Counted from the first letter of the stretch, positions 1 through 34,917 are shown. The stretch: 64,000 bases of DNA from an uncultured Christensenella sp. (GCA_910577945.1 CAJTNI010000005.1:1-64000), one strand, 5' to 3'. Program-made: numbers and translations. Notes: generated by a model from the letters alone, not told the origin.

Positions 1-958
1 AGACGGCTTGTCAAGTTATATGTGAAAGCCTGCGGCTTAACCGTAGAATTGCATATAAAACTGACTCGCTAGAGTGTAGGAGAGGTAAGCGGAATTCCTA
101 GTGGAGCGGTGGAATGCGTAGATATTAGGAGGAACACCCGAGGCGAAGGCGGCTTACTGGACTATAACTGACGTTGAGGCTCGAAAGCGTGGGTAGCAAA
201 CAGGATTAGATATCCTGGTAGTCCACGCCCTAAACGATGGATACTAGACGAGGGCAGCTTGCCTGTCCGTGTCGTAGCTAACGCATTAAGTATCCCGCCT
301 GTGGAGTACGGCCGCAAGGTTAAAACATAAAGAAATTGACGGGTCCCCGCACAAGCAGCGGAGCATGTGGTTTAATTCGAGGCAACGCGAAGAACCTTAC
401 CAAGACTTGACATTGCGTGACAGCCTGTGAAAGCAGGTCTCCCTTCGGGGCACAAAAACAGATGGTGCATGGTCGTCGTCAGCTCGTGCCGTGAGGTGTT
501 CGGTTAAGTCCGTCAACGAGCGCAACCCTTATTTCCAGTTACCAATATTAAGTTAGGGACTCTGGAAAGACTGCCGCGGATAACGCGGAGGAAGGTGGGG
601 ATGATGTCAGATCATCATGCCTCTTACGTCTTGGGCTACACACGTGCTACAATGGGCGCTACAAAGAGCTGCAAAGCCGTAAGGCCGAGCCAATCTCAAA
701 AAAGCGCTCTCAGTTCGGATTGTGGGCTGAAACCCGCCCACATGAAGTTGGAGTTGCTAGTAATCCCGGATCAGCACGCCGGGGTGAATGCGTTCCCGGG
801 GATTGTACACACCGCCCGTCAAGCCATGGGAGTTGGGGGTACTCGAAGTCGGTCACGCCAACCCGCAAGGGAAGCGTCCGCCTAAGGTAAAACCAATGAC
901 TGGGGTTAAGTCGTAACAAGGTAGCCCTACGAGAACGTGGGGCTGGATCACCTCCTTT
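1..958 (+). rRNA. rrs: 16S ribosomal RNA, 3' ~960 nt (partial at window start)
   Basis: Conserved 16S blocks are present: GGATTAGATA(T)CCTGGTAGTCC, GCATGTGGTTTAATTCGA, GTCGTAACAAGGTAGCC. The gene ends with the anti-SD tail GGATCACCTCCTTT at ~945-958. Confidence 0.95.
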
Positions 959-8063: not shown

Positions 8064-8782
8064 TTGCCGCAGCGTTCCGTCGCGCGTTTGCGTACGTCCG
8101 ATACTCGTTTGTTCATTATTCTTCTGCCGATATTTTCGTACATGAATTTTTTGACGCCGCGGTATTTCTGCGAATATCGCGCGTACAGCGCGTCGGGCGA
8201 GTCGAATACGCCCAAATCCTCCACGACGGCGGCTTGCTGTATCGCGGTGGCTTTGCCGCGCCAATCAACTTTAAGCTCTGAAAAATCATCGACCGCAACC
8301 GCGTAATCGAAAAAACGCCCGCGCTGCTCGGGGAACAGCGCGCGCAAGCCCGATAGGTAGATTTTGTCGGTGATGACGCCCTCCAAGCTCAGCCATTCGT
8401 CGTCGTACAATACCTCCGCCCAGGTATGCAAAATCAGCGGCGGGGCGAGCTTCGCCATGAGCTTGGGCATCAGCCCGCGTTGAAATTCCTTGGTCACCTT
8501 AGACCCGTGCAGCCTGCACGGCACGTCGACGGCGCGCAGCAGCGAAGTAATAAGCGTAGCCTTGGTATTGCACTGTCCGAACCCGTCCGCCAAAACCTGC
8601 GAGGCAGTCAGGCTGTCGTACTTGTTGTAGCCCAACGGAACGGCGTTTTGCACATAGTCGTAAATCGCGCCGATTTTGTCGTACGTATCGTTCAGGCTTG
8701 CCCATTTTTGCGCCGCAATCAGCTCGACGATTTCGCGCGCGTCGTAGTTTAGCATTTTCGTACTTTTCAAATAATCGTTCAT
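8060..8782 (-). CDS. Transglutaminase-like superfamily protein (cytoplasmic)
   Basis: Candidate Cys/His/Asp triad: GQCNTKATL ... ILHTWAEV ... D. Confidence 0.55.
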   Translation of the reverse strand: MNDYLKSTKMLNYDAREIVELIAAQKWASLNDTYDKIGAIYDYVQNAVPLGYNKYDSLTASQVLADGFGQCNTKATLITSLLRAVDVPCRLHGSKVTKEFQRGLMPKLMAKLAPPLILHTWAEVLYDDEWLSLEGVITDKIYLSGLRALFPEQRGRFFDYAVAVDDFSELKVDWRGKATAIQQAAVVEDLGVFDSPDALYARYSQKYRGVKKFMYENIGRRIMNKRVSDVRKRATERCGN

Positions 8783-8827
8783 AATCGAAATTCCTCGTTT
8801 GAGATTACTTCGATTATACGCCGTGTA

Positions 8828-9574
8828 TTACGAAAAAACTTTCAAAAATTCGCTGTCTTTTATGAGCGCGGTCGCGGTCATACCCATTTGTTTTTTTACC
8901 GTTGCGGCAAAGTGCGAAGGGCTGTCGAACCCCGCGGACATTGCCGCGTCCGTGACGCTCTTGCCGTCGAGCAATGCGTAAAACGCTTTTTCGAGCATGT
9001 GGTAGAGGATATAGCTTTTGAGCGGCACGCCCGCTTGCTCGCGGAATAAATGCGACAGACGGTCGGGCGAGAGCGACAGCTTTTTCGCAAAGCTTTTTAT
9101 CGTGTGGTCGTAGCAATCGCAGTGCCGCAAAATTGTCAAAAGCTCGGCGATACGCGCGTCCGTTTCCGATACGCTGCGCCTGACGCCCAAAAATGCGGCA
9201 AATTCGGCTATAAACGACAGGTAGCGGAATTTGTCGACGGTTTCGGTCAGCGCGGCGGCAGCGCGCCGTAGCGGCTCGATTTCGTCGTCGAACACGGCGT
9301 AGTCGCCGCCGATTTTCGCCGACAGCTCCTTTGCGAATTGCGAGCTCGGTTGAATCAAAACGGAGAGGCAAAGCGCGCCGTCGCACGAAAATTCATGCGG
9401 CGCGTTTTTGTTTACGACTATACATTTGCCTACGACGCGCTCGTTGCCGACGGTTACGCACAGCTGCGAGGTCAGCCCGATAAAGGCTTGTATCACGCAG
9501 TGCGAGTGCGGCGCGGCGTTTATGCGGTCGCTTATAAACGCGATATTGTCTTTGTCCCAAAACACTTTAAGCAT
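8828..9574 (-). CDS. AraC family transcriptional regulator
   Basis: C-terminal double HTH: SFAKKLSLSPDRLSHLFREQAGVPLKSYILYHMLEKA ... AMSAGFDSPSHFAATVKK. Confidence 0.8.
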   Translation of the reverse strand: MLKVFWDKDNIAFISDRINAAPHSHCVIQAFIGLTSQLCVTVGNERVVGKCIVVNKNAPHEFSCDGALCLSVLIQPSSQFAKELSAKIGGDYAVFDDEIEPLRRAAAALTETVDKFRYLSFIAEFAAFLGVRRSVSETDARIAELLTILRHCDCYDHTIKSFAKKLSLSPDRLSHLFREQAGVPLKSYILYHMLEKAFYALLDGKSVTDAAMSAGFDSPSHFAATVKKQMGMTATALIKDSEFLKVFS

Positions 9575-12169: not shown

Positions 12170-13492
12170 ATGCGTAAAAATCGTATAACGGCGGGAACGC
12201 TCTTAAACGCACGGCGCGCGCGGCTTACGACGCGGTTTTTCGGCTTGCGTTATGCGGCGCGCGTAAAACGCAGGGTTTCGCTTGCGCCCGCCGTGCTTGC
12301 GGCGGTAGCGGCGGGCTTGCTCGTTCCGTTGGTGATAATGAACGCGCTGCGCATAGACGCGGGGCGCGCGGAATGGTGGTCGCGCACCGTCGCGCGCGCG
12401 TACGAGCGAGCGGTGGGCGCGCTTACGTCGTGGCTGCCGATATCGGTGTACGAGCTGTTCGTAGTGATTTTAATCGCCGCGGGGCTGTTTCTTTTCGGGC
12501 GGCTCGTAATCAATCTGTGTCGCGGCGCGTTTATGAGAATAGTGACGGGCGTGCTCGCCGTCGCAGTGGGCGCGGCGTACGTCGGCAACGCGTACATGCT
12601 GTCCATGGGGTTCGGATATTATCGCCGCAAAATGCCGTTGCCGCAAGCGGGCGCGGATTATCGCGTGGAAAAGGTGATAGAGGTTGCCGAGTATTTTTTG
12701 AACGATTACAACGCGCTTGCGCAAAAGCTGCCGCGCGACGAAAACGGGTGCGTGATAAATCCGTACGGGTTCGACGGCACGGCGCGGCGCATCGCCGCCG
12801 AGTACGCCAAGCTGGACGACGGGTATTTCTCGCCGTATACGCCGAACGCGAAGCAGGTGGTCAACAGCTGGCTTATGTCGGACATGCTGATTACGGGCGT
12901 CACGTTTTTGCCGACGGGCGAGGCGAGCTTGAACGTCGGCGCGCCGCCGTCGGTAGTTACTTTCACAACGGCGCACGAGCTGGCGCACACGAAGGGCGTA
13001 CAGCGCGAGGGCGACGCAAACCTCATCGCGCAGTACGTAATGCTTTCGTCCGAGGACGAATACCTGCGGTACTGCGGTTATTACAACGCGTTCGGCGCGG
13101 TGATGTCGGCAATCGTTTTGGCAATGGGCGACGAGCTGCAATACGCAACCGAATACAACAGGCTGGTCGGCGAAATGACCCCGCTGATTTCAGTCGAAAA
13201 ATTGTACGCCAATAAGTATTGGAGCTCGCAGCCCGATATTATCGGAAAGCTCGGCGAGTTCTTTAACGACTTGTATTTAAAGTTCAACGGCGCGAGCAAC
13301 GGCACGGGCAGCTACGGCGACGGCAACCACACGGACGCAATACGCCCGACCGACCCGAGCACGGGCGAGCCGATGACAGACCCCGACACGGGCAAGCCCG
13401 TGTATATCCCCGTGTACTCGACGCTGCAAAAAGTATTCTTTTATCTGTACGAACAAAAAACCGCACGGTTTGGAATAATCAAGGAGTGTTGA
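12170..13492 (+). CDS. DUF3810-like membrane protein with HExxH zinc-metallopeptidase-like motif
   Basis: N-terminal TM segments. TAHELAHTKG carries the HExxH motif. Confidence 0.55.
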   Translation: MRKNRITAGTLLNARRARLTTRFFGLRYAARVKRRVSLAPAVLAAVAAGLLVPLVIMNALRIDAGRAEWWSRTVARAYERAVGALTSWLPISVYELFVVILIAAGLFLFGRLVINLCRGAFMRIVTGVLAVAVGAAYVGNAYMLSMGFGYYRRKMPLPQAGADYRVEKVIEVAEYFLNDYNALAQKLPRDENGCVINPYGFDGTARRIAAEYAKLDDGYFSPYTPNAKQVVNSWLMSDMLITGVTFLPTGEASLNVGAPPSVVTFTTAHELAHTKGVQREGDANLIAQYVMLSSEDEYLRYCGYYNAFGAVMSAIVLAMGDELQYATEYNRLVGEMTPLISVEKLYANKYWSSQPDIIGKLGEFFNDLYLKFNGASNGTGSYGDGNHTDAIRPTDPSTGEPMTDPDTGKPVYIPVYSTLQKVFFYLYEQKTARFGIIKEC

Positions 13493-14901
13493 CAAAACGC
13501 TACGGTTATGATAAACTCAATCGTATGATAAGGGAAGATAATAAATCGCGAGGGGAAACGACTGTATACGAGTACGATACAAACGGGAATATACTGACAA
13601 AAACAGTGTATGCGTTTGCATTGGGCGAAATAGTCGATAGAGCTCCGATAGCGCAAATCCCTTATGCGTATAAGGCGGACGGATGGCGCGACCGCATGGC
13701 GGAGTACAACGGCGAAAAATGCGAGTACGACGCGATAGGCAATCCTACCAAGTACAGAGGCGTAATAACGCAGTTTAAATACTGCGGCAAAATGACCGCG
13801 TACGGCGGCAATACGTACGCATACGACGCAAACGGCGACCGAATCGGAAAAACGGTAAACGGCGTGGAAACGCGGTTTATAACGGCGTCGGGTAAAGTAA
13901 TTCGCAGTATAACAAACGGCGTTGTGACCGATTTCTTTTACGATGCGGGCGGACTTGCGTGCATACGGCATGACGGCTTGGATTACATAGTCCGCAAAAA
14001 CGTGTTTGGCGACGTAACGCATATATACGACAAAGCGGGCAAGCTCGCGGCACGGTACGCGTATGACGTTTGGGGAAAGTGTAAAGTGCTTAACGCAAAC
14101 GGCGTGGAGGATGCCGACGTTCTGTCGATAGGCAACATAAACCCGATACGATACAGAGGGTATTATTTCGATACGGAAAGCAGGCTGTATTACCTGCACG
14201 CACGCTACTATGACCCGGAAACGGGGAGGTTTATATCCGCAGATAACACTCGCTACGTAACCCCCGATGCCGTAAACGGGCTTAATCTGTACGCATACTG
14301 TGCCGATAACCCCGTAATGAACGTAGACCCTAGCGGACATTCGGTGCTGGCGATATTTTTGACGCTGGCGATAGGGGCGTTATTGGGCGGATTGAGCGGC
14401 GGAATAACTTCGCTTGTTTCCGACGGAGATTTTTGGTCGGGTTTTAGTGGAGGCTTGGTTTCGGGCTTAATTTCCACTGCCGGCTTGGGTTTAGCTGTTA
14501 CAATGGGCGGATTGGGGGGAGTTGCTTTATCTGCATTTTTTGGTTTTGGAGCATCGTTCACAGGTAGTATAGTGCAACAGGGATTTGCGAGTAATTGGAC
14601 GAGTTTTGATTTAAAGTCGGCTCGAATTTCAGGATACATAGGCATGACTATGGGAGCAGTTACATATGGACTGACAAACGGTTTTATGCGTGAGGCAGTG
14701 GGGGTGTTTGATAATATATTCGATAAGTCTATCGGCTTTGCGAGAAGATACGCTGAATTTATGTCTTATTCTGTTCCGTCTTTGGTAAGTACGCTGATAT
14801 TTAATTTGCCTGTTACAGTTGCGCAAACGATAATAGAAAGCGTAATCGGGTGCGGAAAATCCGATAAAAGTAAATCTTCATTGGTAGGGGGGATTATTTG
14901 A
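13486..14901 (+). CDS. RHS/YD-repeat protein C-terminal fragment with glycine-zipper membrane toxin tip (orphan polymorphic-toxin module)
   Basis: YD repeats (YEYDTNGNIL, YAYDANGDRIGK). RHS core end motif RYYDPETGRFISAD ... DNPVMNVDPSGH. After that comes a ~180-aa tail with GxxxG motifs and lower GC. The product is only ~470 aa and there is no N-terminal RHS region upstream. Confidence 0.75.
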   Translation: MLTKRYGYDKLNRMIREDNKSRGETTVYEYDTNGNILTKTVYAFALGEIVDRAPIAQIPYAYKADGWRDRMAEYNGEKCEYDAIGNPTKYRGVITQFKYCGKMTAYGGNTYAYDANGDRIGKTVNGVETRFITASGKVIRSITNGVVTDFFYDAGGLACIRHDGLDYIVRKNVFGDVTHIYDKAGKLAARYAYDVWGKCKVLNANGVEDADVLSIGNINPIRYRGYYFDTESRLYYLHARYYDPETGRFISADNTRYVTPDAVNGLNLYAYCADNPVMNVDPSGHSVLAIFLTLAIGALLGGLSGGITSLVSDGDFWSGFSGGLVSGLISTAGLGLAVTMGGLGGVALSAFFGFGASFTGSIVQQGFASNWTSFDLKSARISGYIGMTMGAVTYGLTNGFMREAVGVFDNIFDKSIGFARRYAEFMSYSVPSLVSTLIFNLPVTVAQTIIESVIGCGKSDKSKSSLVGGII

Positions 14902-15389
14902 AAAAAGAATTAAAAGTTGTGCCGTCTATGTTTTGGTTAATCGGCTCAATTGTTCTAATTATAAGTTTGTATTCAATCTTTATATTTTCGTATACATATC
15001 CGCCTGCCCGTCCCGATGAAATCTTTGACCATATATTATTGATATTTTGTACGGGCGTATTACCGACAGTGATATTTGTTACGGCAATACCGCGTGGTAT
15101 ATTTTCGGTAGTTACGATAAGCGAGCGCGGGGTAAGGCGTACGCTGTTTATGGGACGATTCAAGCTTGAAATGAGTTGGGAGGAAATGGCAGAGATGCGG
15201 TATTATCCTCGGCTGCTGCCGTTTGTATTCTTTTCCAAAACCTGCACATTGGACGGTATGTATTACGACAAAATAATAAAAAGGCGGGACGTTATACAGG
15301 TAACGCTGTCAAAGAAAGTATTGCAAGCGATACGGCAGAATACCAAAAAGGAAATAATAAACCTGCCCGAAAGCTATAACGAGCAATAA
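14898..15389 (+). CDS. Putative immunity protein (small 3-TM membrane protein) for the RHS toxin tip
   Basis: Immediately downstream of the RHS tip and overlapping its stop (TGA/ATG). Hydrophobic N-terminus. GC about 40%. Confidence 0.5.
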   Translation: MKKELKVVPSMFWLIGSIVLIISLYSIFIFSYTYPPARPDEIFDHILLIFCTGVLPTVIFVTAIPRGIFSVVTISERGVRRTLFMGRFKLEMSWEEMAEMRYYPRLLPFVFFSKTCTLDGMYYDKIIKRRDVIQVTLSKKVLQAIRQNTKKEIINLPESYNEQ

Positions 15390-15664
15390 AAGACACAAAG
15401 AGCTCTGCACAGTAATGCGTCGGGCTCTTTGCGTATGTCAAAGCTGATATTATACAAATGGTTAAATCACAGGTCTCAAAGTACTGAAATTGGAAAATGT
15501 AGTTTTTAACCGCTAAATTAATAGGAAAAGTGTGTTGGTATTCTAAAAAGTCTGTTATCTACGATTATATTTTCTGCGGAAAATTTATAATTAGTGTTTT
15601 GTTGATAGGCGTTGTGACTATTTGCTACAACTAAAAACAGTCGACACTTTTTGAATACTTTATT

Positions 15665-15710
15665 ATGCAATATTGCATTTATTGACATTTTATTTAAATT
15701 ATGCTAAAAT
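15665..15710 (+). promoter_or_regulatory. Promoter of SIR2-HerA operon with upstream perfect palindrome
   Basis: ATGCAATATTGCAT is a 14-bp perfect palindrome (15665-15678) abutting TTGACA-17-TAAAAT (15682-15710). RBS aaaggag precedes ATG 15770. Confidence 0.5.
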
Positions 15711-15769
15711 ATTAATGTCGCAAATAATTTTTTAATTGGATAGTCATTTCAATTACAAAGGAGATTCTG

Positions 15770-16768
15770 ATGAGAATTTATAACATAGATGAACAAAGGC
15801 AAGATGTGAAATCGTATTTGATTAAATGTTTATCGTCTAACAATATAAGTTTTTTGCTAGGGGCCGGATTTAGTACGCCATTTTTAAGGGTTCTAGGAGG
15901 CTTTGAAGAACGATTAACGGTTGCAATTGAATTAGGAGATGTAAAACAAATAGTGTTATTGGAAAAGGAGTTTTTTAATAATAGTATTTTACCGATTCTT
16001 AATCAAAAAAAATTAGACACTAATATGAAATATCGTGATAGTTTTTTAAATTCTATAAAGAACATTTTAGAAAAACGTCATAGTTCGGTTTTGCATAAAA
16101 TGTTTAATATTTTTACCACGAATTATGATGTGCTTATAGAACAATCTTTGGAACGTAATGCAATTGAATATTCTGATGGATTTTCTGGGCGACTTAATCC
16201 ATTGTATTCAACAACGAATTTTGGAAGAGTTATAAAAAAGACAAGTGCAATAGCTCACAAATCAACAGAAATAGTAACTGCAAATTTGCTAAAACTACAT
16301 GGCTCATTGAATTGGACACAAACAGATGCTGGCATTGCTTTTGAGAATTGTAACCAAAAGATTCAACGTGTAAAAAAGTGCTTACAAAATGACGATGAAT
16401 TTATGTGCACTTATGAAAAAGAGTTCTTAATTATCAACCCTAATAAGGAAAAATTTAACACAACTGTTTTAAATGCGAATTATTATGATCAATTAAGAAT
16501 TTTTGGAAATGAGCTCGAACAAAGGAATGCTCTTTTGTTAGTTTATGGATTTTCGTTTAATGATGAGCACATACGAACAATAGTAGAAAGAGCTTTAATT
16601 AATCCAACATTAACAGTAGTTATATTTGCATTTAGAAAATGGGATGAAGACGCATATAAAGAAAAATTTGACAAATATCACAATGTTGTTGTATTACGTA
16701 ATAGCGGCGAATTCAATATTGAAAGCGTATCGCGGTTTTTTAAGGAGATTGATAATGATATTGAGTGA
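15770..16768 (+). CDS. SIR2-like (SIR2_2/ThsA-type) NAD-dependent domain protein, defense-associated
   Basis: FLLGAGFS (GAGxS), FTTNYDVLIE (TTNYD), KLHGS (catalytic His), LLVYGFSFNDEH. The order and spacing match ThsA-type SIR2 domains. GC about 33%. Confidence 0.8.
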   Translation: MRIYNIDEQRQDVKSYLIKCLSSNNISFLLGAGFSTPFLRVLGGFEERLTVAIELGDVKQIVLLEKEFFNNSILPILNQKKLDTNMKYRDSFLNSIKNILEKRHSSVLHKMFNIFTTNYDVLIEQSLERNAIEYSDGFSGRLNPLYSTTNFGRVIKKTSAIAHKSTEIVTANLLKLHGSLNWTQTDAGIAFENCNQKIQRVKKCLQNDDEFMCTYEKEFLIINPNKEKFNTTVLNANYYDQLRIFGNELEQRNALLLVYGFSFNDEHIRTIVERALINPTLTVVIFAFRKWDEDAYKEKFDKYHNVVVLRNSGEFNIESVSRFFKEIDNDIE

Positions 16769-18524
16769 AGTTTTGAAAATAGGTGAAGTAAGAGAAGTAT
16801 ATGGACATAAAATCAAAGTTGGAATTTATAGCGAAAAAAATGTCGAATACTTAAATTATGACGGAATACCTATTAAAAATGTTGGAATAGGTAGTTTTAT
16901 CATTATCAGAAAAGGATTTTTAAATATAATAGGGAAGGTAGATGGAGAGTTTATAACTGCTACATCTTTAGAAAGTGGCTATGCGGAAAAAGGGCGTGGT
17001 ATAGCAAGAACATTAGATGTGTCTGTTTTAGGACATTTAGAAAACGATCAATTTGTATTTGGTGTTATTGAGCTTCCATTAATAGGTAACTTTGTATACA
17101 TTATAGATGAGAGCCTACAAAAGAATATTTTAGACCATCATTCGCAGTTTGCATTAAATTTAGGTACTTTGATAGAGTATGATAATTATCCATTTAAATT
17201 AGATTTGCAAGAATTGATATGCAGTCATATCGGAATATTTGGTAATACCGGTAGTGGAAAATCAAATACTCTAGCAAAGATATATACTGAACTATTTGAA
17301 AATTATTCTAGCAATCAACAGTTTAAAAAGAATTCAGCCTTTGTTTTTTTTGACTTAAATGGGGAATATAGAAATTCGTTTCCTAATGGTCATTATTATG
17401 AATTGAATTCAATTGAAAATGAAAAATATCCATTAAATGAGCGGTATTTAACAGATATTGAATTTTGGTCGGTTGTTTTACAGGCTTCGGAAAAAACACA
17501 AAAACCGTTCATAAATGAATGTATAAAAAATTATAAAAAATGTAAGCAATCATCAAATTATTTCACGACTCAAAAATTAAGCGAACTTGTTTTTTATAGT
17601 CAAAAGAACTATGGGGATATTAGGGCATTTATAATTCACATATTTACATGCTTAGAACTTGAAGATGAGATCATATCATTTGATGACAATGTAAGCATTG
17701 AGTATAAAAAACTTATAAGCAATACGCGTGGACAATTAGATTATTTGGCGACCTATAATGAATTGTTTGGTGACATGGATGACAAAGTTATTTCTGTAAG
17801 TCATCTAGATGATATCCAAATTTTTTCTTTAATTGTTTATTACACTTATTGTAAAGAATTAAATAAAGGAAAGATTTCGACTCAAAATATTATTCAATTA
17901 TTTAATAGGATGGATAAAATATTATCGGAATTGGGAAATATATTCGAATTCAAGGGTGATTGTCCAAATGAGCATGTTGTTATTATATCATTATTTAATT
18001 TAAATGCAGAATTGAAAAAGTTAGTGACTTATATAATATGTAGAGATAAATATGAGAGTCATAAAAGACATCGTGGAAATGAGCGATTGCAGTCATCCCT
18101 TCATCTAATTATTGAAGAAGCACATAATATCTTATCGTATGAATCCGCGCGCGAGAGTGAGGAGTGGAAGAATACTCGATTAGAAACATTTGAAGAAATT
18201 ATTAAAGAAGGAAGAAAATTCGGAGTTTTTTTGACTATTGCCAGCCAAAGGCCGGCGGATATTTCGGAAACAATTATCTCACAGTTACATAACTTTTTCG
18301 TTCATCGTTTAGTGAATGCTGAAGATTTAAAGCGGATTTATAAGTCTGTTGCATTTTCTGATTCTGTTTCTAATAATATGATTCCAATTTTACCAGCTGG
18401 TGGTTGTTTATTTTCAGGCATTGCGGCTAATTTCCCATTATTAGCAAAAATTGATTGTTTAGAGCAATCTATCGCGCCTAACAGTTCTAACGTTAATTTA
18501 ATAGATATTTGGGGATTAAAATAA
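16755..18524 (+). CDS. HerA/FtsK-like ATPase (DUF87), partner of SIR2
   Basis: Walker A IGIFGNTGSGKSNT, Walker B LIIEEAHNIL, HerA-like FGVFLTIASQRPADI. RBS aaggag lies 7 nt upstream of ATG 16755. It overlaps the SIR2 stop codon (translational coupling). Confidence 0.8.
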   Translation: MILSEVLKIGEVREVYGHKIKVGIYSEKNVEYLNYDGIPIKNVGIGSFIIIRKGFLNIIGKVDGEFITATSLESGYAEKGRGIARTLDVSVLGHLENDQFVFGVIELPLIGNFVYIIDESLQKNILDHHSQFALNLGTLIEYDNYPFKLDLQELICSHIGIFGNTGSGKSNTLAKIYTELFENYSSNQQFKKNSAFVFFDLNGEYRNSFPNGHYYELNSIENEKYPLNERYLTDIEFWSVVLQASEKTQKPFINECIKNYKKCKQSSNYFTTQKLSELVFYSQKNYGDIRAFIIHIFTCLELEDEIISFDDNVSIEYKKLISNTRGQLDYLATYNELFGDMDDKVISVSHLDDIQIFSLIVYYTYCKELNKGKISTQNIIQLFNRMDKILSELGNIFEFKGDCPNEHVVIISLFNLNAELKKLVTYIICRDKYESHKRHRGNERLQSSLHLIIEEAHNILSYESARESEEWKNTRLETFEEIIKEGRKFGVFLTIASQRPADISETIISQLHNFFVHRLVNAEDLKRIYKSVAFSDSVSNNMIPILPAGGCLFSGIAANFPLLAKIDCLEQSIAPNSSNVNLIDIWGLK

Positions 18525-18593
18525 ATTTAATATGGATTTTAACGCAAAAGAATTTATATCACAAAATGGGGGTTGTTCACGGTAAAACGTAAA

Positions 18594-19090
18594 ATGCGCA
18601 TTCTTTTTTCACCGACACTGGTTATTGGTTCGTTAATTGGTTTGTTTTCGTTAGTCGGCATTTATTTACAGTCGTATATGAACCATGTCGAATAGGATTT
18701 AAAGAACATATTGTTATATTTATTATTTGGACATTATGTTGCGTAGGATTAAGTATAGCCGGTGTCGTAACGGGAGCGCGAAAGGTATTTTGCATAATAA
18801 CGATAGATGAGACGGGAATATCTCGGTCGTTTTTAGGTGTGTTTTGCAAGCTGCACATGTCATGGGACAATATAGCGGAGATTTGTTACTTTACAGCGCT
18901 AGCTGAATTTTTGGTATTTTCGAAAAATAAAAAAGTGTCAACAATGACGTATAATAAAATGAGAATGGAGAAAGATGCTATTGAGATGACGATAAGCAGG
19001 CGTAGATACAGAGTAATTAAGCAATATTTACAGCAGCCGATAGTGGGCATGCCCGAAAAAGTCAAAGAACGTTTGGAGCGCGAAAAGTAA
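18594..19090 (+). pseudogene. Frameshifted paralog of the RHS immunity gene
   Basis: Frame 1 gives MRILFSPTLVIGSLIGLFSLVGIYLQSY..*, which aligns with MKKELKVVPSMFWLIGSIVLIISLYSIFIFSY. A second frame continues ...GISRSFLGVFCKLHMSWDNIAEICYF..., which aligns with ...GVRRTLFMGRFKLEMSWEEMAEMRYY... The single frame break is near 18685. Confidence 0.55.
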
Positions 19091-19160
19091 AATAAATGAA
19101 AAATCAAACGACAGTGAAATAATAATTACCAAAAGTTGTTAATCGGCACTTAACCGAGAT

Positions 19161-19192
19161 AGCCCGTATCAATAACGATTCGGGCTTTTTCG
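19161..19192 (+). terminator. Rho-independent terminator
   Basis: agcccg-tatcaataacgatt-cgggct followed by ttttc. Confidence 0.55.
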
Positions 19193-19305
19193 TGCGAAAA
19201 AAGTCGTTCTAAGCGCTTATATAAAAAATTTCTAAAAATATATACTCATTGTAAGTCAATATCCAACAAAAGCGACCGATAGTTCTATATACTTACCGTA
19301 GGCAT

Positions 19306-19755
19306 ATGGAAAATGACGTAGTTAATGGATTTAAAACAACGCTCGCTGAGTTGATGTCGGAAAACGGTCATAGCGCGACCAGCTTGGGGCGCGCTATCGA
19401 CGTGAATATGTTTGTCGTGCGCAAATGGTTGATGCGTGCAAAAGACGTCAAACTGAAATCGCTTATAAAAATAGTAAATTATTTCGGTTGCTCGTTGGAA
19501 TATTTATGCGGTAAGACGGATGAAATTATTACGTACAAGCCGCAGCCGTTGCCGCCTTTTCGCGATTGGCTGAAAACGGTTTTACATAATTGCAATAAAT
19601 CGTCTTACAAGCTGATAAACGACACCAAGATTTCTTCGTCGCAGTACAACAGCTGGTTACACGGCGGAATGCCGATGCTGACTACGCTCGAAACAGTGGC
19701 GGAGTATTTGGACGTCACTCTCGATTATTTGGTGGGGCGTCATGCCGATAAATAG
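19306..19755 (+). CDS. XRE-family transcriptional regulator with two tandem HTH domains
   Basis: Two Cro/C1-type HTH repeats: LAELMSENGHSATSLGRAIDV... and LKTVLHNCNKSSYKLINDTKIS...LDYLVGR. GC about 45%. Confidence 0.65.
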   Translation: MENDVVNGFKTTLAELMSENGHSATSLGRAIDVNMFVVRKWLMRAKDVKLKSLIKIVNYFGCSLEYLCGKTDEIITYKPQPLPPFRDWLKTVLHNCNKSSYKLINDTKISSSQYNSWLHGGMPMLTTLETVAEYLDVTLDYLVGRHADK

Positions 19756-19786
19756 ATAATCGCACACATAATTAAATATTTCTTTT

Positions 19787-20116
19787 GTGTATACGGAGGG
19801 GGAAATGACGGGACAAAAGCAAAACGCATTCGTACACGAGCTTGTGTTGATATTGTATCATTCTAAATTCAGGGATAAATATTTAAGCGCCGAAACGGTT
19901 GCCGGCATTGATAAGTTTATGGATATGTGTCGGGCTAAGGATATGCTGGATAATTCGCAAACCGCATTTGTCGTGGAGCATTATTACGATATACGCAACG
20001 GTTTGACGATAGGCGAACGCCGCGCGCATGTGGGGTTGAGCGACGCCGCGTTGTATCGGTTTAGACTCAAAATAGCAAGCAGTTTAATGAATTGCTTAAA
20101 TACGATAAATACATGA
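19787..20116 (+). CDS. Hypothetical small protein, possible sigma-70 region-4-like HTH (ArpU/Tn916 Orf7-like)
   Basis: The C-terminal segment NGLTIGERRAHVGLSDAALYRFRLKIASS resembles region 4 HTHs. The start may be the ATG at 19805. Confidence 0.35.
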   Translation: MYTEGEMTGQKQNAFVHELVLILYHSKFRDKYLSAETVAGIDKFMDMCRAKDMLDNSQTAFVVEHYYDIRNGLTIGERRAHVGLSDAALYRFRLKIASSLMNCLNTINT

Positions 20117-20188
20117 TTCCGTCGTTATTTAACGTAATAAAAAAATCGGCATTTTCGCCGATTTTCAGGGGTGCGTGAGCGTTGCGCA

Positions 20189-33837: not shown

Positions 33838-34419
33838 TTATATAGCTTGAACGTCGGCAAGAATTTTCGTCAGTTCCGCGATTGATTTTTTGCCTCGTTT
33901 TATTTGAACGCTGTCGATTATCACTCGTATCGGTGTGTAGACAACGCCTATGACCGTACCTACGATGCACATTATTATCTTCATCCAAAATCCGTCTTTG
34001 CGCTCGATATTTCCGTTTTCGTCGATAACGTATTCTACGCCTTGTTCCATTTCCTTTTGTCTGTGCATTTGCTTAGCTGCTTTGTGCCAAGTTATGCCCG
34101 TATAGATTCCGCACAAAGCGATTCCGCAAATAAGCGCCACCAAATCTATTCCGTTTTCGCCGACAAAAGCGGCGATAATAAGGAATAATCCTATCGCGTA
34201 TAATATGCAGCTCACAATTATGCGGATAAGTCGGCTCTTATTGTCTTTTCGGTAAATCCCAATCGCTTTATTAGTCTTGTCGCAAAGGCAATCGACGCAC
34301 AACGTGCCGTACTGCTCTTTGATAAACGCGGTCTTATCCGCGCACTCTTTGCATATCCCCGCACCGCAAACGTTGCATTGCGCAACCGCGCCGCGGTCGG
34401 GGTGTCGTTCACATTCCAT
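33838..34419 (-). CDS. Zinc-ribbon (CxxC x2) N-terminal domain membrane protein
   Basis: MECERHPDRGAVAQCNVCGAGICKECADK...CVDCLC is followed by 3-4 TM helices. RBS ataggagaaaaa. Confidence 0.45.
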   Translation of the reverse strand: MECERHPDRGAVAQCNVCGAGICKECADKTAFIKEQYGTLCVDCLCDKTNKAIGIYRKDNKSRLIRIIVSCILYAIGLFLIIAAFVGENGIDLVALICGIALCGIYTGITWHKAAKQMHRQKEMEQGVEYVIDENGNIERKDGFWMKIIMCIVGTVIGVVYTPIRVIIDSVQIKRGKKSIAELTKILADVQAI

Positions 34420-34490
34420 GTTTTTCTCCTATAAAGATTTTTTCGGCAAGCTTAATTCTTTCGCATATTTATGCGAATAAGAATTTTGTG

Positions 34491-34547
34491 TATGAGAATA
34501 CTCATACTACAAATATTATATATGTATTTACTCATAATGTCAATGAG
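34491..34547 (+). promoter_or_regulatory. Two inverted-repeat operators upstream of XRE regulator
   Basis: TATGAGaataCTCATA (34491-34506) and CTCATaatgtcaATGAG (34531-34547) share TATGAG/CTCATA half-sites. TATAAT at 34564 sits 6 nt before ATG 34576. Confidence 0.45.
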
Positions 34548-34575
34548 TTTTTGCATTTCAGTGTATAATTTTTTT

Positions 34576-34917
34576 ATGTTTGGCAGCGTTATAAAAGAAT
34601 TGAGAGCGGAAATGGGTATTACGCAAGCAAAGCTTGCGAGTATACTAGGGTGCAGTCAATCGATGATTGCTCGGTGGGAAAAAGGCGAGTGTGAGCCCAC
34701 CGAGTCGGTAATAGTGAAAGCCGCCGATACGTTTAACGTTTCCACGGATATAATATTGGGACGCGACTATCAGCGCGAGCCGATATTGCGCGCGTCGTAT
34801 TGCGTTAACGCAAGAAAAACGTCGGGCGTCGGCGCGGGCAAACGTGCATGGCTTATTTCCAAATACGACTCTGCGTCCGACGATATCAGAAAAGCCGTCG
34901 ATAAATTGTTATCGTAA
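34576..34917 (+). CDS. XRE family HTH transcriptional regulator
   Basis: GSVIKELRAEMGITQAKLASILGCSQSMIARWEKGECEP is an HTH_3. The gene is leaderless (TATAAT-6-ATG). Confidence 0.75.
   Translation: MFGSVIKELRAEMGITQAKLASILGCSQSMIARWEKGECEPTESVIVKAADTFNVSTDIILGRDYQREPILRASYCVNARKTSGVGAGKRAWLISKYDSASDDIRKAVDKLLS

What the first reader, a model, noticed from the sequence alone, without database searches (positions are those of the whole stretch)
14898..19090. Defense cassette is flanked by an intact and a frameshifted copy of the same immunity gene
The small membrane protein at 14898-15389 is the putative RHS immunity protein.
Its paralog at 18594-19090 aligns along its whole length (N-terminus LVIGSLIGLFSLVGIY vs WLIGSIVLIISLYSIF; C-terminus FCKLHMSWDNIAEICYF vs FKLEMSWEEMAEMRYY).
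That second copy is split by a single frameshift near 18685.
The SIR2-HerA island therefore sits between direct repeats of an immunity gene, inside what looks like an orphan-immunity array.
Either the cassette inserted into that array, or it was captured by recombination between immunity paralogs.
Polymorphic-toxin and immunity loci acting as landing pads for defense islands is not commonly documented.
Basis: seen in the sequence. Interest (0 to 1): 0.7.

Follow-up and report, generated by a model that had tools for sequence, protein, structure and literature searches.

The report
Phage-defence genes between two immunity genes

Summary
immA (14898-15389) and immB (18573/18594-19090) are homologous (BLASTP 34% identity, E=1e-25). 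immB is broken by an indel at 18660-18668, most simply loss of one ATTT unit, giving a premature stop at 18693-18695. Independent assemblies are 100% identical, so this is not a read error. The two are old, divergent subfamilies, not copies: blastn finds no nucleotide similarity, so recombination between them is not supported. In other genomes both subfamilies sit directly downstream of RHS C-terminal toxin modules, and toxin and immunity diverge in parallel, so the immunity role is well supported by context. SIR2-HerA (15770-18524, 30% GC) is a foreign cassette. An immA locus that is 98.9% identical elsewhere (L001) diverges at 15444/15445. Cassette relatives (HerA 87-90% identical) lie in unrelated contexts and share only 15748-18563. 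The right junction is a double truncation: 10 codons of a third gene are fused to the last 9 codons of an orphan toxin. The whole block 13468-20138 is absent from conspecific strains (97-99.5% identical flanks), where DUF3810 abuts the tautomerase gene. Toxin/immunity genes co-located with anti-phage systems are already documented (GMT islands, Pantoea hotspots). Verdict: new member of a known kind, modest interest.

The parts
13468..20138 (.). Strain-specific island of 6,671 nt. It replaces about 32 nt between the DUF3810 gene and the tautomerase gene.
   Evidence: Conspecific contigs L020-L026 (97-99.5% identical flanks) align up to 13465-13467 and resume at 20134-20140. DUF3810 and the tautomerase gene are adjacent there. 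A distant Christensenella MAG (L003) shows the same empty arrangement.
13468..13479 (.). 12-nt filler of unknown origin between host DNA and rhs-derived DNA.
   Evidence: Host homology ends at 13467. L001 rhs homology starts at 13480.
13489..13517 (+). Promoter-like 29-mer embedded in rhs coding sequence: TTGACA, 17 nt, then a TG-extended TAAACT.
   Evidence: Scores 10/12 in the promoter scan. The pattern is unique in the window, with 0 matches expected by chance. The same 29-mer is kept in non-coding remnants at L001 2541-2569 and L006 6608-6636.
13486..14901 (+). 5'-truncated RHS fragment (471 aa): YD repeats, Rhs-associated core ending in NVDPSG, then the C-terminal toxin.
   Evidence: Pfam RHS_repeat and NCBIfam TIGR03696 at residues 193-285. 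L001 carries the same gene at 98% identity but extends at least 192 codons further upstream. No other rhs gene is in the window.
14338..14901 (+). 187-aa glycine-zipper-rich, hydrophobic C-terminal toxin domain (predicted membrane-acting).
   Evidence: This is the sequence after the DPSG motif. It is homologous to the toxin domains that precede immB-type genes in L006 (28%, E=1e-8) and L013 (22%, E=1e-6). No Pfam family matches at significance.
14898..15389 (+). immA: intact immunity gene encoding two transmembrane helices plus a PH-like domain.
15390..15444 (+). immA 3' tail with a hairpin; the last sequence shared with the cassette-free locus L001.
   Evidence: The blastn match to L001 ends at 15444. 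GC is 49% here against 26.5% in the next segment.
15445..15747 (+). AT-rich leader unique to this locus, carrying the best promoter-like site of the region (15682-15710).
   Evidence: Not shared with L001, L016 or L018. TTGACA-17-TAAAAT scores 11/12 with a TG extension.
15770..16768 (+). SIR2-like NADase gene of the SIR2-HerA anti-phage system (332 aa, full length).
   Evidence: PF13289 E=1.7e-14. PADLOC SIR2 E=2e-64 over profile positions 11-333 of 347.
16755..18524 (+). HerA ATPase gene (589 aa, full length). Its start overlaps SIR2 by 14 nt.
   Evidence: PF01935 E=1.7e-22. PADLOC HerA E=4e-136 over profile positions 4-612 of 618. Orthologues at 87-90% identity are the same length.
18532..18563 (+). 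Remnant (first ~10 codons, MDFNAKEFI) of the gene that follows HerA in relatives.
   Evidence: L018 and L016 align up to 18563 and 18556. In L018 this ATG opens a 508-aa ORF.
18563..18592 (+). Probable last 9 codons plus stop (KMGVVHGKT*) of an orphan RHS toxin of the immB-associated subfamily.
   Evidence: The L006 toxin tail is KKGVIIGAA*, with its stop in the same register inside the immunity gene's CGTAAA. The stretch is short, so this is suggestive only.
18573..19090 (+). immB: frameshifted immunity pseudogene. Indel at 18660-18668; premature stop at 18693-18695.
   Evidence: The same sequence is present in independent assemblies.
19306..19755 (+). XRE/Cro-type HTH regulator (149 aa) inside the island.
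   Evidence: Pfam HTH_26 and HTH_3; PHROG 8 transcriptional regulator. The exact protein is found only on island-bearing contigs.
19787..20116 (+). Small ORF of unknown function (103-109 aa), the last gene of the island.
   Evidence: No family hit in Pfam, NCBIfam, PADLOC or PHROGs.

Best explanation
Window 13468-20138 is a strain-specific mosaic 'conflict island'. It sits at the 3' end of a DUF3810 gene in a gut Clostridia bacterium; the nearest named relative recovered is an uncultured Christensenella MAG. It has four parts.

1. An orphan RHS module. This is a 5'-truncated rhs fragment that starts at a promoter-like motif embedded in the rhs coding sequence. It encodes a glycine-zipper membrane toxin domain and, translationally coupled to it, its cognate immunity protein immA (two transmembrane helices plus a PH-like domain).
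2. A very AT-rich SIR2-HerA anti-phage pair with its own leader. Both genes are intact. By homology the pair would stop phage replication by NAD+ depletion once the HerA-SIR2 complex is activated.
3. The stump of a second orphan module. This is about 9 terminal codons of a toxin from a different subfamily plus its immunity gene immB, now dead through a frameshift.
4. An XRE-type regulator and a small ORF.

Inferred history: a toxin-immunity array of the kind seen in L001, L006 and L013 acquired foreign DNA carrying SIR2-HerA and at least one more gene. An illegitimate recombination or deletion then removed that third gene and nearly all of the second orphan toxin. The composite reached its present site as a block, or was built up there, without any recognisable mobility gene.

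immA stays intact next to its toxin gene. immB, which has lost its toxin, has decayed.

Shown: homologies, junction positions, the empty site and the composition steps. Inferred: the order of events, immunity function, toxin activity and promoter activity.
For: Paralogy of immA and immB:
- BLASTP E=1e-25; family alignment.

Immunity role, from genomic context:
- immB-type genes overlap the stop codon of RHS C-terminal modules in L006 and L013-L015.
- immA-type genes follow RHS C-terminal modules in L001 and L002.
- immB-type genes also occur as orphans in arrays, or alone.
- Toxin domains diverge in parallel with the immunity genes: L6 vs L13 toxins 42% identical, either vs the window toxin 22-28%; immB types 43-57% identical to each other, 31-36% to immA.

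Foreign cassette:
- GC is 26.5-30% against 37-40% for the immunity genes and 55-59% for host genes.
- L001 is 98.9% identical across 13480-15444 and then diverges.
- L018 and L016 (HerA 90% and 87% identical) share only 15748-18563 and lie in unrelated contexts with no rhs or immunity genes.

Truncated right junction.

Intact SIR2 and HerA.

Whole-island indel:
- Seven distinct conspecific contexts have the empty site.
- The exact SIR2 protein is listed in 6 index blocks, the exact tautomerase in 455.

Not an artefact: assemblies from other samples are 100% identical.

SIR2-HerA mechanism: taken from the abstracts of PMC11472057, PMC11514289 and PMC13434337.
Against: - No integrase, transposase, target-site duplication or terminal repeat was found, so the mode of arrival is unknown.
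- L001 ends 96 nt into its second toxin remnant. It is therefore not shown that an immB-type gene ever followed immA in a cassette-free ancestor.
- The toxin-tail remnant upstream of immB is only about 30 nt.
- Immunity and toxin functions are inferred from context and fold only. No Pfam, NCBIfam, PADLOC or PHROG family covers them.
- Only two close cassette relatives were examined.
- Whether the island was assembled before or after reaching this site cannot be decided from these data.
Confidence: 0.75

Rival explanations
1. One reading: the cassette was captured by homologous recombination between the two immunity paralogues acting as direct repeats.
For: The two genes are homologous, in the same orientation, and bracket the cassette. 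Recombination between tandem immunity paralogues is documented for T7SS immunity genes in firmicutes (PMC9484751, title and abstract).
Against: blastn with word size 7 finds no co-linear nucleotide match between the two regions; the best hit is a 12-nt inverted word. Amino-acid identity is only 32-34%. The junctions lie outside both genes, at 15444/15445 and about 18563. The right junction is a double truncation.
Confidence: 0.03
2. A resident orphan-immunity array at this chromosomal site served as a landing pad, and the cassette inserted there in situ.
For: The cassette does sit between two toxin-immunity modules, and its composition differs from theirs. L001 shows an immA module without the cassette.
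Against: All seven distinct conspecific contexts recovered lack the whole block. None carries immunity genes at this site without the cassette. The rhs fragment, immA, HTH and SIR2 proteins are found only on the same few contigs. L001 continues upstream into a longer rhs gene, so it is a different locus.
Confidence: 0.15
3. The small membrane proteins are accessory components of the SIR2-HerA system (for example membrane sensors or effectors) rather than toxin immunity proteins.
For: They flank the cassette on the same strand. They have no annotated family.
Against: The closest SIR2-HerA relatives lack them. Their homologues are consistently next to RHS C-terminal toxin modules, with overlapping start and stop codons, or in arrays with no SIR2-HerA. 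One of the two is a pseudogene while SIR2 and HerA are intact.
Confidence: 0.03
4. The frameshift or the juxtaposition is a sequencing or assembly artefact.
For: The source appears to be metagenome-derived. The indel lies in a short ATTT repeat.
Against: Contigs from different samples and assemblers (ENA ERZ27269819; Logan ERR3357641) are 100% identical over 21 kb and 7.7 kb, including the indel and all junctions.
Confidence: 0.03

Closest known systems
SIR2-HerA two-gene anti-phage system (NAD+-depleting abortive infection; PMC11472057, PMC11514289, PMC13434337)
   Same: A SIR2_2-domain gene is followed by an overlapping HerA/DUF87 ATPase gene. Both match the PADLOC SIR2 and HerA profiles at full length.
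   Different: The proteins are only distantly related to the characterised ones: NCBIfam equivalog scores are far below cut-off (105 vs 500; 130 vs 850). In the closest relatives HerA is followed within 7 nt by a 508-aa gene of unknown function, which is truncated to 10 codons here.
Orphan Rhs toxin-immunity modules downstream of rhs genes (for example Salmonella; PMC3967940)
   Same: An rhs fragment lacks its 5' part but keeps the core, the DPxG motif, a C-terminal toxin and an adjacent immunity gene. Homologous modules occur in arrays after full-length rhs genes in L006.
   Different: No full-length rhs gene lies upstream or anywhere in the 64-kb window. The orphan is stranded in an intergenic site. 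It therefore cannot be reactivated by recombination with a neighbouring main gene.
Mixed offence/defence islands: GMT islands (10.1101/2023.03.28.534373) and Pantoea 'genomic armories' (10.64898/2026.08.01.741415)
   Same: A strain-variable cargo combines an antibacterial toxin, orphan immunity genes and an anti-phage system.
   Different: Those cases are Gram-negative T6SS effectors. GMT islands are defined by three mobility proteins. Here the setting is a Clostridia RHS family, no mobility genes were found, and the site shows only presence or absence rather than many alternative cargoes.
Tandem immunity paralogue arrays evolving by recombination (T7SS EsaG/TsaI; PMC9484751)
   Same: Several non-identical immunity paralogues of one family lie at one locus.
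   Different: Here the paralogues are far too divergent at the DNA level for homologous recombination.
Bacterial membrane-anchored PH-domain proteins (bPH type: two transmembrane helices plus a PH-like domain; recalled from memory)
   Same: The predicted architecture is two N-terminal transmembrane helices followed by a PH-like beta-sandwich with a C-terminal helix.
   Different: Pfam reports no hit for immA or repaired immB at E<=0.01, and only one unrelated weak hit for immA at E<=1. The resemblance is in fold only.

Membership tests
SIR2-HerA anti-phage system | SIR2-family (PF13289-type) NADase gene | tested here: met
   PF13289 E=1.7e-14; PADLOC SIR2 PDLC04080 E=2e-64, near full length.
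SIR2-HerA anti-phage system | Adjacent, co-oriented HerA (DUF87) ATPase gene in the same operon | tested here: met
   PF01935 E=1.7e-22; PADLOC HerA PDLC04097 E=4e-136. The HerA start overlaps SIR2 by 14 nt.
SIR2-HerA anti-phage system | Phage-triggered NAD+ depletion and protection against phage | not testable with these tools
   Requires plaque assays and NAD+ measurement.
RHS polymorphic toxin | YD/RHS repeats and an Rhs-associated core ending in the PxxxxDPxG motif | tested here: met
   PF05593 E=2.5e-9; TIGR03696 E=1.9e-22 at residues 193-285; 'NPVMNVDPSGHS'.
RHS polymorphic toxin | Variable C-terminal toxin domain followed by a cognate immunity gene | tested here: met
   A 187-aa C-terminal domain lies after DPSG. 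immA overlaps the stop codon. The toxin domain is homologous to those preceding immB-type genes elsewhere.
RHS polymorphic toxin | Full-length shell plus an N-terminal secretion or trafficking region | tested here: not met
   The ORF is only 471 aa. L001 extends at least 192 codons further, and the L006 main gene is over 2,300 aa. This is an orphan fragment, not a deliverable toxin.
Orphan toxin-immunity array | Two or more toxin-tip or immunity modules in tandem, at least one lacking a complete toxin gene | tested here: met
   One module is the RHS fragment plus immA. The other is the toxin-tail stump plus immB. Equivalent arrays are seen in L006, L007 and L013.
Cognate immunity protein (immA/immB family) | Conserved position immediately 3' of a toxin domain in independent loci, co-varying with the toxin | tested here: met
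   The pairing occurs in the window/L001 locus, L006 and L013-15; in L002 an immA-type gene lies in an RHS C-terminal array but separated from the toxin by a 128-aa ORF. Toxin and immunity identities fall in parallel.
Cognate immunity protein (immA/immB family) | Neutralises the toxin | not testable with these tools
   Requires co-expression toxicity assays.
Mobile genomic island (integrative element, transposon or GMT-like) | Integrase, transposase or GMT genes; terminal repeats or a target-site duplication | tested here: not met
   No such ORF lies in 13468-20138. No flanking direct or inverted repeats at 13468/20138 or 15445/18563. No tRNA gene in the window.
Pfam bPH_2 / YdbS-like PH-domain family | Sequence match to the Pfam model | tested here: not met

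The most novel reading that the evidence does not exclude
In this Clostridia RHS lineage, orphan modules may be self-contained expression units whose 5' edge is a promoter embedded in the rhs coding sequence (TTGACA-17-TGATAAACT at codons LTKRYGYDKL). Such units, together with whatever has landed between them (here SIR2-HerA), would then travel between genomes as blocks. RHS arrays would thereby act as vehicles for anti-phage systems as well as for immunity genes.
Probability: 0.15. Interest if true: 0.55.

Novelty: new member of a known kind. Interest (0 to 1): 0.3.

Why it matters
The locus gives a well-resolved example, with base-level junctions and a conspecific empty site. It shows an anti-phage system and inter-bacterial toxin-immunity modules packaged in one strain-specific island in a Gram-positive gut anaerobe. 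That extends a pattern so far documented mainly for Gram-negative T6SS effectors.

It also defines a small, unannotated immunity family: two transmembrane helices plus a PH-like domain, 186 clusters among 1.84 billion representatives. This family pairs with a glycine-zipper RHS toxin family.

Finally, it points to a candidate internal promoter that marks orphan-module boundaries.

None of this changes current concepts. The value is as a catalogue entry and as a lead for toxin-immunity experiments.

Tried and rejected
1. I first read the frame-2 peptide NAKEFISQNGGCSR* (18541-18585) as a toxin-tail remnant. Rejected: it is the 5' end of the 508-aa gene that follows HerA in L018 and L016. The better toxin-tail candidate is the frame-3 peptide KMGVVHGKT*.
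2. Repeat search for target-site duplications or terminal inverted repeats around the cassette and the island: nothing meaningful.
3. Nucleotide comparison of immA with immB: no similarity.
4. Pfam, NCBIfam, PADLOC and PHROGs for immA, immB, the toxin domain and orf109: no significant family.
5. Metagenome scan with the immunity alignment: only 3 near-identical loci.
6. Viral-contig scans with HerA and with the immunity alignment: no relatives.
7. Exact look-up of the 83-aa C-terminal immB ORF: not on record.
8. Exact look-up of the HTH protein: found only on the same island contigs. It is unrelated to the HTH gene upstream of SIR2 in L016.
9. The afdb50 fold library was not available.
10. tRNA scan: none in the window.
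11. The genome-collection scan with DUF3810 recovered only a distant relative (54% identity). The conspecific empty site came instead from an exact-protein look-up of the tautomerase.

Full report
**1. The observation**

The region contains these ORFs, all on the + strand:
- a 471-aa RHS ORF at 13486-14901;
- a 163-aa ORF at 14898-15389 (immA), whose TTG start overlaps the RHS stop codon;
- SIR2 at 15770-16768;
- HerA at 16755-18524;
- two ORF pieces at 18573-18695 and 18839-19090.

Three-frame translation shows the two pieces are one gene, immB, read in frame 1 and then frame 3. The repaired immB aligns with immA over 154 residues at 34% identity, E=1e-25. It also aligns over 98% of its length with intact 171-179 aa proteins from other metagenomes at 46-59% identity.

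In the family alignment the junction reads GIYL|FTVVYEPCR with no gap. It is identical to P0009 in 'YLFTVVYEPCR'. The DNA is GGC ATT TAT TTA CAG at 18657-18671. Loss of one ATTT unit from (ATTT)3 restores both sequence and length, whereas a 1-nt deletion would leave the protein one residue short. The truncated frame ends at TAG 18693-18695.

Contigs from two other samples (L011, L012) are 100% identical to the window over 21 kb and 7.7 kb. The frameshift and all junctions are therefore real.

**2. What the two small proteins are**

No Pfam, NCBIfam, PADLOC or PHROG family matches them. A profile search finds only 186 clusters among 1.84 billion representatives, nearly all stand-alone proteins of 150-180 aa.

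Genomic context supports an immunity role:
- In L001, immA at 98% identity follows an rhs gene that runs off the contig.
- In L002, an immA-type gene lies in an RHS C-terminal array.
- In L006, a full-length rhs gene is followed by two small membrane proteins, then an 832-aa orphan rhs fragment, then an immB-type gene overlapping its stop by 14 nt.
- In L013-L015, RHS C-terminal orphans are followed in the same way by an immB-type gene.
- In L007-L009 and L010 the immB type occurs as an orphan with no rhs gene.

The toxin domains after the DPSG motif are all 182-187 aa, glycine-zipper-rich and hydrophobic. The two that precede immB-type genes are 42% identical to each other. They are 22-28% identical to the window toxin that precedes immA. 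This mirrors the immunity proteins: 43-57% identity within the immB type and 31-36% between types. I take this parallel divergence as good contextual evidence for cognate toxin-immunity pairs. The biochemical function remains inferred.

**3. The two genes are not direct repeats**

blastn with word size 7 finds no co-linear similarity between 14800-15450 and 18500-19150. Each gene has closer orthologues elsewhere than its neighbour. They are ancient subfamilies, probably with different toxin specificities, and could not support homologous recombination.

**4. The SIR2-HerA cassette and its junctions**

Both genes match the PADLOC SIR2 and HerA profiles at full length.

GC content across the region:

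| Segment | GC |
|---|---|
| Cassette, 15445-18572 | 26.5-30% |
| Immunity genes | 37-40% |
| rhs fragment | 44-50% |
| Host genes | 55-59% |

Left junction: L001 is 98.9% identical to the window from 13480 to 15444 and then diverges.

Right junction: the closest cassette relatives are L018 (HerA 90% identical) and L016 (87%). They align with the window only over 15748-18563 and 15757-18556. They lie in unrelated neighbourhoods with no rhs or immunity genes. In both, an ORF starts 7 nt after the HerA stop (ATGGATTTTAACGCAAAAGAATTTAT...). In L018 it encodes 508 aa with a weak DUF5677 hit and is followed by an HNH-CTD11 protein. The window keeps only its first ~10 codons (18532-18563).

Immediately after that, frame 3 reads KMGVVHGKT*. 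The L006 toxin tail reads KKGVIIGAA*, and the stop codon sits in the same register inside the immunity gene's CGTAAA. The right junction therefore looks like a deletion or illegitimate recombination that fused the start of a third cassette gene to the last few codons of an orphan toxin.

No direct or inverted repeats flank the cassette. The 303-nt leader 15445-15747 is unique to this locus and holds the best promoter-like site in the region, at 15682-15710.

**5. The whole block is an island**

An exact-protein look-up of the adjacent tautomerase (listed in 455 index blocks) returned seven distinct contexts from the contigs read. All are 97-99.5% identical to the window flanks. In every one DUF3810 lies directly next to the tautomerase gene.

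Host homology ends at 13467 and resumes at 20139. About 32 nt in the empty-site strains are replaced by 6,671 nt here. The insertion rewrites the last codons of DUF3810 (NSAC* becomes KTARFGIIKEC*). A more distant Christensenella MAG shows the same empty arrangement.

The exact SIR2 and HTH proteins occur only on a handful of contigs, all with this same arrangement. So there is no resident immunity array at this site into which the cassette inserted. The mosaic either arrived as a block or was built in a lineage for which no intermediate was recovered.

The island contains no integrase or transposase, and the window has no tRNA gene. The window holds no other rhs gene either, so the rhs fragment is a stranded orphan.

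**6. How it probably works**

- **SIR2-HerA.** By homology this is an NAD+-depleting abortive-infection system built from a HerA-SIR2 complex (abstracts of PMC11472057, PMC11514289 and PMC13434337). Both genes are intact and the unit has its own promoter-like leader. Its activity here is inferred.
- **immA.** It is translationally coupled to a toxin fragment that lacks any delivery domain. It would protect against that fragment if expressed, and against the same toxin delivered by neighbouring cells.
- **immB.** It has lost its toxin gene and its reading frame, so it is non-functional. The contrast between immA (intact, beside its toxin) and immB (decayed, without one) fits relaxed selection on an immunity gene that no longer has a toxin to counter. 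This is inference.

**7. A detail noticed at the island's left edge**

The L001-homologous DNA starts at 13480, 9 nt before a promoter-like 29-mer: TTGACA, 17 nt, then a TG-extended TAAACT (13489-13517). The 29-mer lies within the rhs codons LTKRYGYDKL.

The same 29-mer occurs in the main and orphan rhs genes of L001 and L006. It also occurs in two non-coding remnants:
- L001 2541-2569, followed by an RBS, an ATG and a toxin tail;
- L006 6608-6636, upstream of a 188-aa immunity-like gene with two transmembrane helices.

Both remnants begin within a few bases of the TTGACA. Three independent modules ending at the same point suggest one of two things: an embedded promoter retained to express downstream immunity genes, or a preferred recombination boundary. 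I could not scan public collections to test this.

**8. Comparison with what is known**

Each component belongs to a known kind: the SIR2-HerA system, an orphan Rhs toxin-immunity module (PMC3967940), and a strain-variable island. Co-location of antibacterial effectors, orphan immunity genes and anti-phage systems is explicitly described for GMT islands (10.1101/2023.03.28.534373) and for Pantoea 'genomic armories' (10.64898/2026.08.01.741415). Recombination among tandem immunity paralogues is known for T7SS (PMC9484751) but does not apply here.

What is new is modest:
- an example from a Gram-positive gut anaerobe with base-level junctions;
- an unannotated immunity family (two transmembrane helices plus a PH-like domain) paired with a glycine-zipper RHS toxin family;
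- the candidate embedded promoter.

**9. Verdict**

Capture by paralogue recombination, a resident landing pad and the novelty claim are not supported.

Novelty: new member of a known kind. Interest: 0.3.

Noticed in passing
window 13489-13517; L001 581-609 and 2541-2569; L006 4491-4519, 6608-6636 and 8617-8645: A promoter-like 29-mer (TTGACA, 17 nt, then TGATAAACT) is embedded in the rhs coding sequence. It is kept in two non-coding remnants, and three independent orphan or remnant modules begin 0-9 nt upstream of it. It may be an internal promoter for downstream immunity genes or a recombination boundary.
   Followed up: partly
L018 3116-4642 (also the end of L016); window 18532-18563: In the closest SIR2-HerA relatives a 508-aa gene starts 7 nt after the HerA stop. 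It has only a weak DUF5677 hit and no defence-family match, and in L018 it is followed by an HNH-CTD11 protein. It may be a third partner or simply a neighbouring defence gene. The window retains only its first ~10 codons.
   Followed up: partly
window 14898-15389 and homologues P0001-P0019, P0140-P0287: This is a small unannotated protein family: 186 clusters at E<=1e-3 among 1.84 billion representatives. The predicted architecture is two transmembrane helices plus a PH-like domain. Its divergence tracks that of the adjacent glycine-zipper RHS toxin domains.
   Followed up: partly
window 13465-13492: The island insertion rewrites the C-terminus of the DUF3810 protein (NSAC* in empty-site strains, KTARFGIIKEC* here). 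The new stop codon lies inside rhs-derived DNA.
   Followed up: yes
window 1-958: The window starts with the 3' 958 nt of a 16S rRNA gene (Rfam SSU_rRNA_bacteria, 966 bits). No 23S rRNA match follows anywhere in the 64-kb window, and an epimerase gene lies at 1759-2661. The 16S gene may therefore be unlinked from a 23S gene.
   Followed up: no
window 33838-34917: A second low-GC patch (43% against about 56%) encodes a 193-aa protein with an N-terminal cysteine-rich (zinc-ribbon-like) region and predicted membrane helices (minus strand) and a 148-aa protein with an XRE-type HTH-like motif. It may be another small acquired islet.
   Followed up: no
window 8473-9566: Among conspecific contigs the AraC-regulator/transglutaminase segment is variable. 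L020, L021 and L023 lack it and carry a 136-aa gene instead; L024 carries a 214-aa gene.
   Followed up: no
window 19306-20116: The island ends with a 149-aa XRE/Cro-type regulator (PHROG 8; weak RstR-like hit) and an unannotated ORF of about 105 aa. The exact regulator protein occurs only on island-bearing contigs. The role of either gene is unknown.
   Followed up: partly
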